A stretch of DNA of 64,000 nucleotides. Source: Lysobacterales bacterium (GTDB taxonomy: Bacteria; Pseudomonadota; Gammaproteobacteria; Xanthomonadales; SZUA-38). The position numbers are program-made. Location: NCBI GenBank assembly GCA_030065125.1, contig JASJDM010000012.1, forward strand, positions 20,718 through 84,717. The letters run 5' to 3'. This document shows, piece by piece, positions 27,001 through 33,000 of this stretch; the stretch's first letter is position 1, and every line of letters begins with the position of its first letter.

Positions 27001-30000
27001 GGGCCCTGGCGTCTCCCTCAAGCGCCAGGGCCCGGCTTTCCATCCTTGGCCCAGACCGGGCTTCAGGGTGACAGGGGCTCAAACCCGTTGCTGAAGATCA
27101 GTCCCGGGGCACAGGACGGTCCCGATATCACATCGTCCACAATGCCGTTGCAGTCGTTGTCGATGAGGTCGCACATTTCCACCGCGCCGGGGAAGATCAG
27201 GTTGTTGTCGTCATTACAGTCACCCTGGTCTTCGGTGAAGCCGTCCAGGTCGTCGTCGGTGTGGGGCAGGGCCACTGTGGCGAGCATGGATTGAATGGGC
27301 GAGGCATTGGGCGGTACGGCATTGTCCTGGCTGAAAAACTTCAGCGTGGTGGTGGCCGTTCGACCCTCCTCGGGCTCCGGAATGATGATGGACTCCCGGT
27401 AGCGGTCGCGCGGGTCGGCCGTGGGCTCCCTGCCGTCAGTGGTGTAGTAGATTTCGCAATCGTTGACCGAATCCGCGCACTGCAGGGATACCCGGAAGCC
27501 AGACGGATAGGTTCCGTCGGAGCGCGGCGCCACCGTAGGTGTTGTCGCCACTTCCGGGGCCGTGGTGTCGAATGCTGCAGCCGGGTCGTATACCAGCTCG
27601 TGGTAGCACTGCACCCCCTGGCCGCCGGAGGTGGTCCGGCGGACACAACCGGTTTCCTGCCCGGGCATAGGCGTCCCTCCGGGGCACAACGTATTGGTTC
27701 TGTCGCAGGTCTGCCGGCAGCCCGGCAGGCAGTCCACCGGACTGGAGGCCACGCAGGCCGCCACACAGTCCGTCTCCACCCCGTTGCCGGACCCGGCACC
27801 ACAACTCAACTCACAGTCAGAGCGGATACCGGCTTCACAGCTGTCCAGGCACTGGTTCTGCAGCGTCAGCTTGCCGGGACACAGGGCCAGGTTGTCCTCG
27901 AAGCATTGCTGGTCAAACTCCACGTTTCTCTGGTTCAGCGGCTGGGCAGCGTCCTGTGCAATCCAGCGGATACGCTGTACCCGATCGGTCTTGAGGAATC
28001 CCAGAACATTACCATCGGCGTCGAAGGGATTGCCGTTGCTGTTCAGGATCTGGGTGGTGTTATTCAACGCCGGGGTATCGTCCTCTCCAGGATCGTTGAC
28101 CTTATAGAAGATCATGCAGTTCTCGGAGTTGTCTGAGCAGGAGAATCGAACCTTGTGTTCATCGTCGTCTATGTCGTAGAACAGCTCTGCGCTGGAGATC
28201 GGCGCCGTCACATCGGCGTCGACAAAGTCATAGGTTTCGGTCCGAACCACTTCCTGGTTGCCCTCCACGTCGATGGAAAAATAGGACAGCCGGGTGTGAT
28301 CACCGATCTCGGCGGGGACCTGGACAAAACTCCAGAATTCGCCGCCCCCGACGCCGGGATCGAACTTGTAGCAGCTGCTCACCGGCACATCACACAGCCC
28401 GGCGGGGTTTACGCCTGCCTGGGTGTAAGGCGTTGCCGTGGGCTCGGTGCAGAGGGCAGCGGTGGACTGAACCTGGACGTCGTCACTGCCGCAGGCAAAC
28501 AGCGTCCATGCACAGCGCTCGCTCGCGGAATCCTGGTCCGGCGTGCAGTCCAGATTAGTGATGGTTGTGGTATCACTGCCCGGCGCTCCCCCGACGTAGG
28601 TGCCGGTGCTGCCGTTGGAAGTCGTGGTGGGCGGTGTCGTGTTAACGTCTTCATTGGGCCCGCCGGCTGAGTTGGTGGTAAAGGTGGTCCCGCAGTTCAT
28701 GCCGCCGTCCACCCACTCATTGACCCAGTCTTCCCAGATCGACAGTGCGTCCAGGCGCTCCTGCAGCGACGAGTTGCGGTTGAGGTCGGTACCGGGAGGC
28801 GCCAGTTCGTCGATGAAATTGTTGGCGGGTTTCTCGCCGCCCACAATGGACCAGATGATCCGCGGATCCTCGAACATATGATGCTTGAACACATCGGGAT
28901 CCGGCGTCTCCGATACGAACAGGGCGCAGGCCGTAGACGGGTCATAGTCCGGTGATTCCGGATCCTCCAGGTGGTCAGGCCAGGTCAGGCCACCCTCATA
29001 TTCAGGCGCGAACCAGGCCCACCAGGACTCGTAGTCTTCTCCAGGGAAATTCAGGTCCAGGTCATGGGTAGCCGAGTAGCTGGTGCCCAGGATCTGCGGG
29101 GCCTTGTCCGCCGAATGGCAGCCCACACAGGCATTGGGATTGTGGAATTCCTCCACGCTGCCCACAAACCCGACATGCAGGGGACCGATCCCGACGCCGG
29201 CCAGGGCGTCCCGCTCCAGGACGTGGCAGGAAATGCAGGCCGGGTGCCTGAAAGCATCCACCAGTGGTGAGTCGGCAAAGGCGATGCCAACCGAGGGCAG
29301 CCCGCCGCCGCCGGGATCACCACCGCCGTCGTTGGGGATACCGATGGTGCCTACGCCCAGGTGCGACACGTTTTCCGACCTGCCGCAGGTTTCGGCGCCG
29401 TTGACGTCAGTGCAGGTAGCCACTCGGAAGAACACGCGGTCGGCGTTGACCTGGTCCAGCAGGGGCTGGTAGACCGACTGGTCCGGCCGGAACTCGATAA
29501 ACTCGTGGCCGTCCAGCTGTTCAGTACGGGCCTGGCCGGTTCCGACATCCTGGAAGCTGCTGGTCAGACCGTTGAGGTCGATGGGGAAACTGACCACGTC
29601 GCTGGGAATGGAGCAGGCCTCGGTGAAGGTGCAGTAACCCCGCTGGTCCAGGCTGCAGTCCAGCGGGTCGGTGGATAGACAGGCGTTGCCGATGCCGGGG
29701 CAGGCAAATTTGGTTCGTTCGCACACGGCGGATGATTGCTGCAGCTGGAGCGACATCACGTGCTTGTCGGCACCGCTGTTGAACCCGCCGAAGACGCCGG
29801 CCAGCCCGGTGGTGGTTCGCGGCCAGCGGAAGGCAAAATCGTCCACTGACTCGAACACCACGGAATCAGCGGGATAGACCTGGTTGAACGGGGACTGGTT
29901 TCCGACACTCCCCGGCGGTCGCAGGGCGATGTTGGACAATGCCGCACGCATCGAATAGGCGTAGCTGACTTCGACCTGGTTGGTCTGCACATTGAGTGCC

Positions 30001-33000
30001 TGGACCCACAGCAGGATCTCCTGACCCCGCAGCGGATCCAGCGCCTCCTCGAAGGGGATGATGTACCGAGCGATACTGAAGCCCTCGGTAAAGCTGATCC
30101 TGTCGCAGGCGGGCTGGACGTCGAATTCTGCCCTGGACTGCAGACAGATCCAGTACAACTCATGGGGAATCCCGTCGTACGGGTCAGTGTCGCCCTCCAC
30201 CGTGAAGCTACCCAGCAGGTTGGCCGATGCAATCTGGTTCTGCAGATCGCCCAGGATGGTGATGGGCGGCTCATTTCCCTTCTCTGTGGCTTCTGAATAC
30301 AGCACCGGTTTCGGCTGGGCCAGGGAAACACCCGTACACAAAATTCCCCCGATCAACGCTCCCAGCATCTTCCAGCGCAGGGCAAATCGATTTCCTGACA
30401 TCCTCGTCATGGTTTTCTCCCATCGTGTGACGGGGTCAAAGCTGCCCGAATATGGCCGTTCAAGCTTGAAGGAAATCTAACGGCGATCTAACTGAAAAAT
30501 TAGTTCGTTTGTTTTCAGTGGCTTAGCGCGCTGTCCCAACGGGCTTTGCCGAGGCAGATCCAGTGATATGCGTGGTCAACAGTCTTGCCCGGCTCGCACC
30601 CTGGCGACAACCTGGCCTGCTGCGGGCGGTGTATGATCGAGTCAGACAACGCGGGGAGCGCCATCATGATTCAGGTTGCCTATGTGAGCCGGTCAGCCGA
30701 ACCCATGTCCGACCAGGCCTTGCTCGACCTTTTGCTGCAATGCCGGAAAAACAACCGCAAGCGCGGCATTACCGGGATGCTGCTGTACGCCAACGGCACT
30801 TTCCTGCAGGCCATCGAGGGTGAGGAGGAGGTCATAAACGCCCTGGTCGAGGAAATCTGGAACGATGAGCGGCACACGGATATTCAGCTGCTGCACCGGA
30901 GGGAAATCGAAGTCCGCGAATACGGCGACTGGAGCATGGGTTTTGAGCGGGTCACGGATGCAGATCTGCGGCAGGTTGAGGGACTGCACGACTTTGGCGC
31001 CAAGGATTTCAACTTCGACTACCTGGTTGGCAATCAGCCCACCGTCGAGTCGCTGATTCGGCATTACCGGGAACCCCACTGGGACCAGATGCTGTGCGAA
31101 ATGGCCGCCAAGGACAAGGTCATCGAACACCTCAACAGTGCTCTGGCGCAGCTCCGCGAGCGCGCGCAGATTGCGCGCCTGGCATTGGAGGGGGTGACGG
31201 ATGCTGCCCGCAAAGGCGAATCTCCGGAGGCCATCCTGAAAGTCTGTGAAGCCGCCATGGCGTCGCTGCGGCAGAACTAGCGCCCCGGCTGCGTCCCTGT
31301 CGGCACAGTCCCGAATCAACGGGTCGGAGGCGATGAGATCAGGTAGCGCGCGGGAGCCACTGGCCGCTGAGTCGTGACAGGGCCTGCCCGCGCGGTGAGG
31401 GTAACGCCGATTCCGTCTGGCGTAGATCCGGGCTTACCGAGGTGAAACCGGTGGATGCACTACATATCGGAGATCGAACTCAAGTATTTTGTTGACTGGC
31501 CGAAATAGAGAACCTGGGGACTCCAACAGGTACCTCGATGGCATTCGACAGTTTCATCCATATTTCGAAGCGGGCGCCGCCGCCGAATCGTATTCTCGAC
31601 CACAAGTTTCGGGACAACCGCTGGCAGTATGGACTGCAGTGTCTGATGGCAACGCTTTCCATATTCGCGGTGCTGACGGTGCTGGATGCCGTGACCCAGA
31701 CGGTGCTTGTGGCGTCTCTTGGGGCCAGTTCATTTATCGCATTCACCATGCCCCACGTGGAGTCGGCCCGCCCCCGGTACCTCGTTGGGGGTTACGTGAT
31801 TGGCACCATCGCGGGCTGCGGGATGTCCCTTGCGGGCGCTGGCGTTGCGGCGTCCGGGGTTATTGACGGGAACTCTCTGCCGCTTGCGTTTGCCGCCCTG
31901 GCCACGGGCATTGCGATCTTCCTGATGGTGATCACCAACACTGAACATCCCCCGGCCGCGGCACTGGCCCTGGGTTTTGCCCTCAACGAATGGAATATCA
32001 CCACCATAGCGGTGGTCTTCATAGGCATTGTCGCCATCTCCGCCATCAAGGAGGTCGGCAAATCCAACATGATGGATCTGCTCTGAGCGCGTACCACGCG
32101 TTCCCGGTCCGGCGATGACCCCTCCCCATGGCCCCCAGGCAGCGGGACCGCTTCATACCCCGCGGCCTGGTCGACTCGCCGCGTGGGTGGTAAGGGCCGA
32201 GCAAGCTCGGCAACTACGTATGGAAGGTCAACTTCAAAGTGGTAGCGTGAAAAGACTCCGTCTAAACCGGAGTGCACCGGAGGTGCGCGAGCAAAGTCGT
32301 TTCGGGGAAACCGCAATGGTTTTGTCTTGCCCGCATGCACTTGTTTTTTCTTGGCGCTGGATGTGCAGCCAGCCAAAGGGGAACATGTTATGCGTGACCT
32401 GGGCCCACGGAGAAACCGCTCTTCTCATCCGCGGAAATTCCTTCACGACTGTTTAATCTGCCTGACGGCTTTTGCCTTGCTGTCCCCAGCTTCGGGCTGG
32501 GCCCAGTCAGCGGACCTGGACGTCTCAATCGGCACCTGGCCGACCAGCTACACGCCGGGCGCCACCGCCACCAATGCGTATCAGTTCACCGTCGAGAACC
32601 TCGGGACCGACAACACCACCGGCGCCACGGTCACGGCGATTTTCGACGATCCGGCGGCGCTGGCGTCCATGACCTGGACCTGTTCTGCTGACAGCGGCAG
32701 CAGCTGCGGCAGTGCCTCGGGATCTGGAACCAGCATTAACACCACGGTGGATCTCGAAAATGGAGACACGGCCACCTTTACCCTGAGCCCGGTGTTCGAC
32801 GGTGACGCCACCGCCGATCCGCTGATGCTGACCGCAACTGCGGCAGTAACCGGAGGGGATACCGACCCGGTCGGTTCCAACAACAGTGCCTCGAGGACCA
32901 GCAGCCGATCCCCGGACCTGGACATCCGCGTGGTCAGTCTCACCGATGGCGCGTCGATCTACTATCCCGGCAGCAGCGCGACTTACACGTTCACCGTAGA

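What the first reader, a model, noticed from the sequence alone, without database searches (positions are those of the whole stretch)
27063..30410. 1,115-aa Cys-rich exoprotein with two CxxCH motifs, chitobiase-C-like and MopE-like modules, and the shared tag
The sequence shows FRHPACISCH (CISCH at 29223-29237) and HNPNACVGCH (CVGCH at 29115-29129), 31 residues apart. They lie in a protein with many other cysteines, a signal peptide, segments resembling the chitobiase/hexosaminidase C-terminal domain, a MopE-type putative metal-binding motif (27132-27224) and the terminal LIFSNGFE.

CxxCH is the covalent haem c attachment site, and a His precedes each motif within 5 residues. The gene is followed on the same strand by a TonB-dependent receptor after a 210-bp spacer that contains a terminator (26986-27034). 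One possible inference is an extracellular haem- or metal-binding protein linked to TonB-dependent uptake or redox chemistry. Chance occurrence of the motif in a Cys-rich protein is a real alternative.
Basis: partly seen in the sequence, partly recalled or inferred. Interest (0 to 1): 0.55.

Follow-up and report, generated by a model that had tools for sequence, protein, structure and literature searches.

The report
Uncurated two-haem cytochrome c domain
A large secreted protein of a marine Xanthomonadales bacterium carries a conserved ~200-residue module that almost certainly binds two haem groups covalently; no curated protein-family library covers this module, it most likely moves electrons outside the cytoplasm, and it shows no sign of feeding the neighbouring TonB-dependent transporter.

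Summary
The ORF at 27063-30410 (-) encodes 1,115 aa with 45 Cys. It has only two CxxC motifs, and both are CxxCH (C392ISCH, C428VGCH).

The motifs are not chance. The expected probability of two or more is 3.7e-4. Both are invariant in all five orthologues (44-69% identity). Both are also kept in every remote relative that covers them, among only 28 hits in 1.84 billion representatives. In five relatives the second site is CxxxCH.

Two further His are conserved: one between the motifs (H412) and an invariant H511. Two bis-His haems would need exactly these.

The domain (residues 375-577) passes no Pfam or NCBIfam threshold. Sub-threshold hits and profile hits in the PDB are almost all to c-type cytochromes. 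The AlphaFold model (pLDDT 79) is all-alpha and has no Foldseek match in the PDB.

A stand-alone 175-aa member in Thiobacillus lies between soxYZ and a rhodanese gene, next to cytochrome c biogenesis genes.

The TonB link fails. Four of five orthologous loci have no neighbouring receptor gene and in the fifth the receptors lie on the opposite strand. The receptor is not of the haem type, there is no Fur box, and a terminator separates the genes.

Verdict: a new family of dihaem cytochrome c domain inside a multidomain exoprotein. Its partner is unknown.

The parts
27063..30410 (-). Whole gene: 1,115-aa multidomain exported protein. NCBI names a protein of the same 90%-identity cluster 'MopE-related protein [Xanthomonadales bacterium]'.
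30416..30421 (-). Shine-Dalgarno-like GGGAGA, 5 nt upstream of the ATG
   Evidence: sequence read directly
30318..30410 (-). Sec-type signal peptide, residues 1-31 (basic n-region, hydrophobic core, SLA|QP)
   Evidence: by inspection; orthologues also start with hydrophobic leaders
29343..30317 (-). N-terminal beta-rich region, residues 32-356. It matches no known family and contains a Cys-rich insert at 230-266 that is absent in P0005.
29289..29342 (-). Gly-rich linker, residues 357-374
28680..29288 (-). Putative dihaem cytochrome c domain, residues 375-577. The model is all-alpha (pLDDT 78.9, pTM 0.80), with a lineage-specific disordered insert at about residues 454-475.
29223..29237 (-). 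Haem-attachment motif 1, C392-I-S-C-H396. Invariant in all 20 sequences of alignment A5.
29115..29129 (-). Haem-attachment motif 2, C428-V-G-C-H432. Invariant; written CxxxCH in 5 remote relatives.
29175..29177 (-). H412, the His between the motifs. It is invariant in the orthologues, and every family member has at least one His in this segment. Inferred distal haem ligand.
28878..28880 (-). H511 of the invariant H-x3-D-x4-W motif. Inferred distal haem ligand.
28926..28928 (-). C495. Invariant, and inferred to form a disulfide with C573.
   Evidence: the pairing is inference
28692..28694 (-). C573 of the closing W-V-D-G-G-M-x-C motif. In most compact relatives the protein ends here.
28566..28679 (-). 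Thr/Pro/Gly-rich linker, residues 578-615
27912..28565 (-). Two beta modules that resemble CHB_HEX_C by eye, residues 616-833. Neither passes Pfam. The arrangement is shared with the distant relative P0007.
27606..27905 (-). Cys-rich helical segment, residues 836-935, with five CX3C pairs. Deleted in orthologue P0005.
27318..27518 (-). CHB_HEX_C_1 domain (PF13290), residues 965-1031, E 3.4e-10
27132..27221 (-). MopE-type putative metal-binding motif (PF11617), residues 1064-1093. It corresponds only to residues 6-44 of MopE*.
27078..27101 (-). C-terminal tag LIFSNGFE, residues 1104-1111. Two other window proteins and the orthologues share it.
26989..27035 (-). GC-rich hairpin plus U-run: a likely intrinsic terminator between this gene and the TonB-dependent receptor

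Best explanation
Residues 375-577 form a c-type cytochrome domain of a family that no curated library covers. After Sec export, the cytochrome c maturation machinery would attach one haem to C392/C395 with H396 as proximal ligand, and a second haem to C428/C431 with H432. The conserved His between the motifs (H412) and the invariant H511 would supply the sixth ligands, giving two low-spin bis-His haems. A C495-C573 disulfide would close the helical bundle.

The domain would act as an electron-transfer relay. In this protein it is fused between beta-sandwich modules of the CHB_HEX_C type, a Cys-stapled helical segment, a MopE-type acidic/Cys motif and a short C-terminal tag. The holoprotein is therefore most likely released or displayed at the cell surface, where it would pass electrons to or from an extracellular partner such as a redox enzyme, a metal ion or a mineral.

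What is shown: the motifs, their conservation, the additional conserved His and Cys, the domain architecture, the export signal, and the absence of a conserved gene partner. What is inferred: haem occupancy, which residues are the ligands, the disulfide, the extracellular location, and the direction and partner of electron flow.
For: Only two CxxC motifs occur among 45 Cys and both are CxxCH; the chance probability is 3.7e-4.

Both motifs are invariant in the five orthologues down to 44% identity and in all 20 sequences of the wider alignment A5. Every family member that covers the region has exactly two motifs, and five members write the second one CxxxCH. From general knowledge, that is a variant tolerated for haem attachment but not expected for a zinc knuckle.

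Every member has at least one His between the motifs, and all but one truncated sequence keep the His of HxxxD..W.

Most members begin with signal peptides or lipoboxes.

The profile of A5 hits the PDB almost only at c-type cytochromes: the reaction-centre cytochrome subunit (6e-5), HAO (2e-4), MtrC (8e-4), OmcA (1e-3) and NapB (0.04). All sub-threshold Pfam hits of six members are to cytochrome c families.

The AlphaFold model is confident and all-alpha, with motif 1 in a helix.

The stand-alone 175-aa member in Thiobacillus/Hydrogenophilales lies in the gene order ResB - CcsA - sigma54 regulator - monohaem cytochrome - FCSD flavoprotein - SoxY - SoxZ - [member] - rhodanese - DUF302 - thioredoxin.

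The order beta-region / dihaem domain / CHB_HEX-like modules is kept in a 26%-identical relative. One orthologue replaces the tag with a MYXO-CTERM-like tail, which points to surface sorting.

There is a precedent for a c-type cytochrome domain inside a large secreted multidomain protein that donates electrons to an extracellular enzyme: Cbp2D/CjX183 of Cellvibrio japonicus (PMC8981238).
Against: No haem has been detected, so everything rests on sequence. No curated cytochrome family reaches its threshold; the best is NapB at 16.9 bits against 25.1. The PDB profile hits are driven largely by the two short motifs. Foldseek finds no cytochrome fold, or any other fold, in the PDB.

Model coordinates could not be inspected, so a geometry in which the four Cys form disulfides or bind a metal is not excluded. 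No cytochrome c maturation genes lie in the window. No gene neighbour is conserved that would name the redox partner. The Thiobacillus context is effectively a single independent observation, because the four loci are near-identical.
Confidence: 0.66

Rival explanations
1. The four Cys of the two CxxC motifs form a structural Cys4 metal site (zinc-ribbon-like or iron-sulfur) or two disulfides in a Cys-rich extracellular protein. On this reading the following His residues are incidental and no haem is bound.
For: CxxC-X31-CxxC is also the spacing pattern of Cys4 metal sites. Putidaredoxin and a LIM domain appear among the weak PDB hits (E 0.4-0.8). The protein is Cys-rich and plainly rich in disulfides elsewhere. 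There is no curated cytochrome hit and no fold match.
Against: The His after each second Cys is invariant in all members, and a Cys4 site does not require that. Two further His are conserved. The second motif tolerates CxxxCH. The domain is predicted helical rather than a beta-knuckle. The top PDB and Pfam twilight hits are overwhelmingly cytochromes. All members are exported into an oxidising compartment. One member sits next to cytochrome c biogenesis and sox genes.
Confidence: 0.1
2. The protein is an extracellular haem- or metal-capturing, or metal-reducing, factor that works together with the TonB-dependent receptor encoded downstream, for example by reducing Fe(III) or Cu(II) or by handing over a ligand for uptake.
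For: The TBDR lies on the same strand 210 bp downstream and is followed by an overlapping TPR gene. A MopE-type motif is present. In Methylococcus, MopE is a surface copper-handling protein, and the authors of PMC3423442 point to the abundant c-type cytochromes of that organism when asking how its copper is reduced. TBDR genes also lie within two genes of orthologue P0004, on the other strand.
Against: Four of five orthologous loci have no neighbouring TBDR gene, and none has one downstream on the same strand. There are three TBDRs in this 64-kb window. The receptor reaches no haem or siderophore subfamily cut-off. The best Fur-box match upstream of either gene is 10/19, which is background, while another TBDR in the window has 15/19. 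A strong hairpin terminator separates the genes. The MopE similarity excludes the Cu(I) site. Covalent haem cannot be delivered as cargo.
Confidence: 0.08
3. The dihaem domain is catalytic rather than a simple relay. One haem would have an open or exchangeable sixth position and would act on a small substrate such as peroxide or a sulfur compound, in the manner of dihaem peroxidases/MauG or SoxA/TsdA. The other haem would feed it electrons.
For: The Thiobacillus member occupies the position after soxYZ where soxA normally lies, and it overlaps a rhodanese gene. There are faint hits to the SoxA/TsdA cytochrome domain (E 0.43) and to CCP_MauG (E 0.17). Invariant D515, W520 and W466 near H511 could form an active-site pocket. 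H389 and M571 are common but not universal, so ligation may differ between members.
Against: There is no significant similarity to any catalytic dihaem family. No conserved Cys or Tyr is available as the special ligand that SoxA/TsdA uses, apart from the C495/C573 pair. The number of conserved His matches two six-coordinate haems exactly.
Confidence: 0.14

Closest known systems
NapB, the dihaem cytochrome c subunit of periplasmic nitrate reductase (PF03892; PDB 1jni, 1ogy)
   Same: Two CxxCH motifs a few dozen residues apart in a small, mainly helical periplasmic domain. From general knowledge, both NapB haems are bis-His. NapB is the best single Pfam hit for the window domain, and it is a weak PDB profile hit aligned over both motifs.
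   Different: The score is 16.9 bits against a cut-off of 25.1. The similarity is limited to the motif region. The C-terminal half of the domain (HxxxDxxxxW, APPG, W..V..WVDGGMxC, and the Cys pair) has no counterpart. There are no nap genes nearby.
Multihaem cytochromes c (cytochrome c7/c3, MtrC/MtrF domains II/IV, the reaction-centre tetrahaem subunit, HAO)
   Same: The sequence context of the motifs resembles theirs at profile level (E 6e-5 to 1e-3). Family members give faint Pfam hits to them. MtrC and OmcA are likewise exported to the cell surface.
   Different: This domain has only two haem sites and a different, longer helical scaffold. No curated threshold is met and there is no Foldseek match.
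Cbp2D of Cellvibrio japonicus, with its CjX183 c-type cytochrome domain (PMC8981238)
   Same: A large secreted multidomain protein of a gammaproteobacterium in which a small c-type cytochrome domain is embedded among binding modules. It serves as an extracellular electron donor, to LPMOs in that case. This is the best analogue for how the window protein may work.
   Different: No sequence relationship was detected. CjX183 is described there only as a small c-type cytochrome domain. The other domains differ. No LPMO or other obvious partner is encoded near the window gene.
MopE / MopE* of Methylococcus capsulatus (PDB 2vov; PF11617)
   Same: The C-terminal motif at residues 1064-1093 matches PF11617 above threshold and matches MopE* in the PDB (E 0.0024). 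NCBI names the protein 'MopE-related'. Both are secreted or surface proteins.
   Different: Only residues 6-44 of MopE* are matched. That is the flexible N-terminus, which is invisible in the crystal. The Cu(I) site (kynurenine 130, His132, His203) is not matched. MopE has no CxxCH domain.
SoxA / TsdA-type cytochromes of sulfur oxidation
   Same: The stand-alone family member follows soxYZ, which is the usual place of soxA, in Thiobacillus MAGs.
   Different: The PF21342 hit has E 0.43 and no NCBIfam SoxA model hits. The protein is about 175 aa. No Cys axial ligand is evident.

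Membership tests
c-type cytochrome (covalent haem c protein), general class | One or more CxxCH (or CxnCH) attachment motifs, conserved among homologues | tested here: met
   Two motifs, invariant in 5 orthologues and in the 20-sequence alignment A5. Every family member that covers the region has both.
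c-type cytochrome (covalent haem c protein), general class | Export of the apoprotein to the periplasmic side (Sec signal peptide) | tested here: met
   The N-terminus has a basic n-region, a hydrophobic core and an SLA|QP site. Relatives carry leaders or lipoboxes. Judged by inspection only; no predictor was run.
c-type cytochrome (covalent haem c protein), general class | Conserved residues able to act as distal axial ligands | tested here: met
   Every member has at least one His between the motifs (H412 here). H511 is kept in all but one truncated sequence. Which haem each His ligates is inference.
c-type cytochrome (covalent haem c protein), general class | Covalently bound haem demonstrated (haem stain, pyridine haemochrome, mass) | not testable with these tools
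   Needs protein expression and spectroscopy.
c-type cytochrome (covalent haem c protein), general class | A cytochrome c maturation system (Ccm or Ccs) in the same genome | not testable with these tools
   No such genes were found among the window ORFs scanned against Pfam. The rest of the genome is not available. The Thiobacillus member lies beside ResB/CcsA.
c-type cytochrome (covalent haem c protein), general class | A match above threshold to a curated cytochrome c family, or a cytochrome fold match | tested here: not met
NapB (PF03892) | Score at or above the gathering threshold of 25.1 bits | tested here: not met
   12.1 bits for the full protein and 16.9 bits for the domain alone.
MopE copper-binding protein | PF11617 motif | tested here: met
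   38.6 bits against a cut-off of 27, at residues 1064-1093.
MopE copper-binding protein | The domain carrying the Cu(I) site (Trp130 converted to kynurenine, His132, His203) | tested here: not met
   The PDB profile search matches only residues 6-44 of chain 2vov_A. The site residues are as given in PMC3423442.
CHB_HEX_C_1 (PF13290) module | Score at or above the gathering threshold of 22 bits | tested here: met
   40.2 bits at residues 965-1031.
TonB-dependent haem or metal acquisition system (secreted binding protein plus cognate receptor) | Conserved linkage of the secreted protein gene with the receptor gene | tested here: not met
   In five orthologous loci no TBDR lies downstream on the same strand, and four have no neighbouring TBDR at all.
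TonB-dependent haem or metal acquisition system (secreted binding protein plus cognate receptor) | The receptor belongs to a haem/haemophore receptor subfamily | tested here: not met
   TIGR01785 scores 80.4 bits against a cut-off of 316.85. No subfamily passes.
TonB-dependent haem or metal acquisition system (secreted binding protein plus cognate receptor) | An iron-responsive (Fur) operator upstream | tested here: not met
   The best match is 10/19 in both intergenic regions, which is background. As a positive control, the site at 11735-11753 upstream of another TBDR scores 15/19.
PSCyt-type (planctomycete) cytochrome domains | A match to PF07635, PF07583 or PF07627 | tested here: not met
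   No hit for the window protein or its domain at E <= 10. Two remote members give only faint PSCyt3 hits (E 0.17 and 2.2).
MtrC/OmcA-type outer-surface decahaem cytochromes | About ten haem motifs and the PF22113 domains above threshold | tested here: not met
   Only two motifs. PF22113 appears only as faint hits in remote members, at most 18 bits against 30.

The most novel reading that the evidence does not exclude
Residues 375-577 represent a structurally new dihaem cytochrome c fold: no Pfam or NCBIfam model covers it and Foldseek finds no neighbour in the PDB. Aerobic marine Xanthomonadales would use it as the redox head of a surface-displayed multidomain protein and so exchange electrons with extracellular substrates such as metals, minerals or polysaccharide-oxidising enzymes. 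In Thiobacillus the same module, as a free periplasmic protein, would be an unrecognised electron carrier of a SoxYZ/rhodanese sulfur-oxidation branch. The short C-terminal [LI]F[AS][DN]GFE tag may be an undescribed sorting signal for such exoproteins.
Probability: 0.3. Interest if true: 0.7.

Novelty: new variant of a known kind. Interest (0 to 1): 0.45.

Why it matters
If haem binding is confirmed, this defines a new, rare family of dihaem cytochrome c domains that current annotation misses. The public names are 'MopE-related protein' and 'hypothetical protein'.

It would add an extracellular redox protein to a group, marine Xanthomonadales/Lysobacterales, that is not known for extracellular electron transfer. 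It would also point to an overlooked cytochrome in a Thiobacillus soxYZ-rhodanese cluster.

In practice, a profile built from alignment A5 could be used to annotate the family. The 175-aa stand-alone member is an easy target for expression, spectroscopy and structure determination.

Tried and rejected
- Full-length AlphaFold model with five sequences: mean pLDDT 42, unusable for the haem domain.
- Foldseek of the good domain model against the PDB: no match.
- Sequence-profile search of the PDB with only the close orthologues gave antibody noise and NapB at E 0.53. The deeper profile was needed.
- Gene neighbourhoods of four orthologues, one genome-collection hit and four remote members showed no conserved partner. 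TPR proteins recur nearby, but they are of different kinds and TPR proteins are abundant, so I did not count this as linkage.
- Self-BLAST for internal repeats of the CHB_HEX_C-like modules found nothing significant.
- NCBIfam has no model for the protein, the domain or the C-terminal tag.
- The Fur-box scan was negative for this gene.
- Literature searches found no description of this domain.
- A hemophore-like role was rejected because covalently attached haem is not transferable and the receptor linkage is not conserved.
- A MopE-like copper site was rejected because only the N-terminal motif is shared.

Full report
**1. The observation**

The ORF at 27063..30410 on the minus strand is real and encodes 1,115 aa. 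A GGGAGA lies 5 nt upstream of the ATG. The N-terminus reads as a Sec signal peptide with an SLA|QP cleavage site.

The protein has 45 Cys and 17 His. It contains only two CxxC motifs, and both are CxxCH: C392ISCH396 at 29223-29237 and C428VGCH432 at 29115-29129, with 31 residues between them. At this composition the probability of two or more CxxCH is 3.7e-4 by Poisson and 5 in 20,000 shuffles. No other large ORF of the window has the motif, including a 4,411-aa ORF with 40 Cys.

Pfam confirms CHB_HEX_C_1 at residues 965-1031 (E 3.4e-10) and the MopE-type motif at residues 1064-1093 (E 1.2e-9). The only cytochrome hit is NapB, far below threshold. NCBIfam finds nothing.

The tag LIFSNGFE is residues 1104-1111, four residues before the stop codon.

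The downstream gene on the same strand (24225..26852) is a TonB-dependent receptor, 210 bp away. The spacer holds a strong hairpin followed by a U-run (26989-27035; -35 kcal/mol, z -3.15).

**2. Are the motifs conserved?**

A search of 5.8 billion proteins found only five full-length relatives: one identical, and four at 68, 61, 51 and 44% identity. In their alignment both motifs are invariant. So are H389, H412, H449, H511, M571, C495 and C573. H424, the His that precedes motif 2, is not conserved.

A profile of residues 375-577 was run with HMMER over 1.84 billion cluster representatives. It found only 28 proteins at E <= 1e-3.

In these remote relatives the region is a compact domain of about 150 aa. 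It usually lies at the very C-terminus of an exported protein or lipoprotein and ends ...W-V-D-G-G-M-x-C.

Every member that covers the N-terminal half has exactly two motifs. The first is always CxxCH. The second is CxxCH, or in five cases CxxxCH. In the 20-sequence alignment A5 the invariant residues are C392, C395, H396, C428, C431, H432, W466, C495, H511, D515 and W520.

Every member has at least one His between the motifs, and all but one truncated sequence keep the His of HxxxD..W. That makes two attachment motifs plus two more conserved His, which is what two six-coordinate bis-His haems would need.

**3. What kind of domain is it?**

No Pfam or NCBIfam model reaches its cut-off, either on the window domain or on the relatives. 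All the faint hits are to c-type cytochrome families: NapB, c7, c3, MtrC/MtrF II/IV, NapC/NirT, Paired_CXXCH, SoxA/TsdA and CCP_MauG.

The A5 profile against all PDB sequences gives a list led almost entirely by c-type cytochromes: the reaction-centre cytochrome subunit (6e-5), HAO (2e-4), MtrC (8e-4), OmcA (1e-3), NrfA, NapB and PpcA. The alignments cover the two-motif stretch. These scores are carried largely by the motifs, so they show cytochrome-like context. They do not show membership of any of those families.

**4. Context evidence for a redox role**

The stand-alone 175-aa family member (signal peptide plus domain only) occurs in Thiobacillus/Hydrogenophilales MAGs, where it is named 'hypothetical protein'.

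In four near-identical loci, which amount to one independent observation, the gene order is: ResB, CcsA (cytochrome c biogenesis system II), a sigma54 regulator, a monohaem cytochrome (CASCH), FCSD flavoprotein, a Met-rich protein, SoxY, SoxZ, the dihaem protein, rhodanese (overlapping by 8 bp), DUF302, two more Met-rich proteins, and a thioredoxin. In canonical clusters soxA follows soxYZ, and DUF302 genes are known companions of sox genes (PMC5248467).

This places the domain among periplasmic electron-transfer and sulfur-oxidation proteins, next to haem-attachment genes.

**5. The rest of the protein**

The domain order is:
- signal peptide;
- a beta-rich region of about 325 aa with no known family;
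- a Gly-rich linker;
- the dihaem domain;
- a Thr/Pro-rich linker;
- two CHB_HEX_C-like beta modules, recognised by eye only;
- a helical Cys-rich segment with five CX3C pairs, deleted in orthologue P0005;
- a Pfam-confirmed CHB_HEX_C_1 domain;
- the MopE-type motif;
- the C-terminal tag.

A distant relative, P0007, aligns over residues 304-767 at 26% identity (E 6e-30). The arrangement of beta-region, dihaem domain and CHB_HEX-like modules is therefore old. P0007 also carries OmpL47-type domains.

The MopE similarity is limited to residues 6-44 of MopE*. That is the flexible N-terminus, outside the kynurenine/His132/His203 Cu(I) site (PMC3423442). NCBI's name 'MopE-related protein [Xanthomonadales bacterium]' rests on that motif alone. 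The one relative found in the genome collection is a Lysobacterales MAG.

**6. The TonB hypothesis**

Among the orthologous loci L001 to L005, none has a TBDR downstream on the same strand. Four have no adjacent TBDR. L002 has TBDR genes nearby, but on the opposite strand.

The window itself has three TBDRs, so one next to any given gene is unremarkable. The adjacent receptor passes no NCBIfam subfamily cut-off; the haem family scores 80 bits against 317.

A Fur-box scan gives 10/19, which is background, upstream of both genes. It gives 15/19 at 11735-11753, directly upstream of a different TBDR, so the scan does work in this genome. With the terminator between the genes, the pairing looks incidental.

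**7. Most likely mechanism**

The steps are these:
- Sec export.
- Attachment of two haems c at C392/C395 and C428/C431, with proximal ligands H396 and H432 and distal ligands H412 and H511.
- Closure of the bundle by a C495-C573 disulfide.
- Secretion of the folded holoprotein, or display of it at the cell surface.

The surface location is inferred from three things: the kinds of modules present, the C-terminal tag, and the fact that orthologue P0005 has a MYXO-CTERM-like Cys-TM-RR tail in the tag's place (13.6 bits against 15.85).

Once outside, the domain would work as a short electron relay. The nearest functional precedent is Cbp2D of Cellvibrio japonicus, whose embedded c-type cytochrome domain reduces LPMOs (PMC8981238). 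The partner here is unknown.

The rivals are a non-haem Cys4 or disulfide site, a TonB-coupled acquisition role, and a catalytic dihaem centre. They are weighed in the rival-explanations section of this report.

**8. Novelty and score**

c-type cytochromes are a well-known kind of protein. This is a rare, uncurated domain family within that kind, with a possibly new scaffold and an unusual host protein, so I rate it a new variant of a known kind. Interest is moderate at 0.45. The case for haem binding is strong, but it is computational only, and no function-defining partner emerged.

Noticed in passing
window 932-985 (+), 59106-59132 (+), 27078-27101 (-); internal copy near 45086 (+); L003 504 and 8538; L002 10902; L004 5254; L005 6582: The motif [hydrophobic]-F-[A/S]-[D/N]-G-F-E sits within 1-10 residues of the stop codon in three unrelated exported proteins of the window and in the orthologues. 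It also occurs internally in the 4,411-aa ORF and in an L003 protein. No NCBIfam model matches it. It may be an undescribed C-terminal sorting tag or a domain-boundary strand.
   Followed up: partly
P0005 C-terminus (L001 about 13080-13225): The most divergent orthologue lacks the GFE tag. It ends instead in Cys-Gly, a hydrophobic helix and RR, a sub-threshold MYXO-CTERM match (13.6 bits against 15.85). This suggests that the C-terminus of this family is a sorting-signal position.
   Followed up: partly
window 11729-11759: A Fur-box-like site (15/19 to the consensus, with overlapping 13-14/19 matches on both strands) lies directly upstream of the TonB-dependent receptor at 11756..13924. That receptor, not the one next to the cytochrome gene, looks iron-regulated.
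   Followed up: partly
window 32327-45562 (+) and 48331-56862 (+): Two giant ORFs of 4,411 and 2,843 aa, the second with only a faint beta-propeller repeat hit. Between them lie a SurA-like PPIase (45516..46580) and a 584-aa ORF with no family hit. A lactonase/Calx-beta protein bearing the GFE tag follows (56865..59132).
   Followed up: no
window 17719-21143 (+) and 1601-4456 (+): An ECF sigma factor (PF07638 type) overlaps the start of a Ser/Thr kinase-TPR gene. A second kinase-TPR gene lies at 1601..4456. Kinase genes also occur near the orthologues in L001 and L002.
   Followed up: no
window 30585-31280 (+): A BLUF blue-light sensor gene is transcribed divergently from the cytochrome gene, followed by an HPP-family membrane protein (31538..32086).
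   Followed up: no
window 27606-27905 (-), residues 836-935: A helical Cys-rich segment with five CX3C pairs (854/858, 866/870, 882/886, 894/898, 898/902). It is present in four orthologues and cleanly deleted in P0005, so it looks like an optional disulfide-stapled spacer.
   Followed up: partly
L009 6586-7173, 10144-10629, 10717-11364: Three secreted proteins made largely of Met-rich repeats (MMNPxxMM) flank the soxYZ-dihaem-rhodanese-DUF302 genes in the Thiobacillus loci. Their function is unknown.
   Followed up: no
P0007 and P0008 C-termini: The intermediate relatives end in ...GCQLRKF and ...GGGGCQLRR. These short Cys-containing basic tails may be another kind of C-terminal signal.
   Followed up: no
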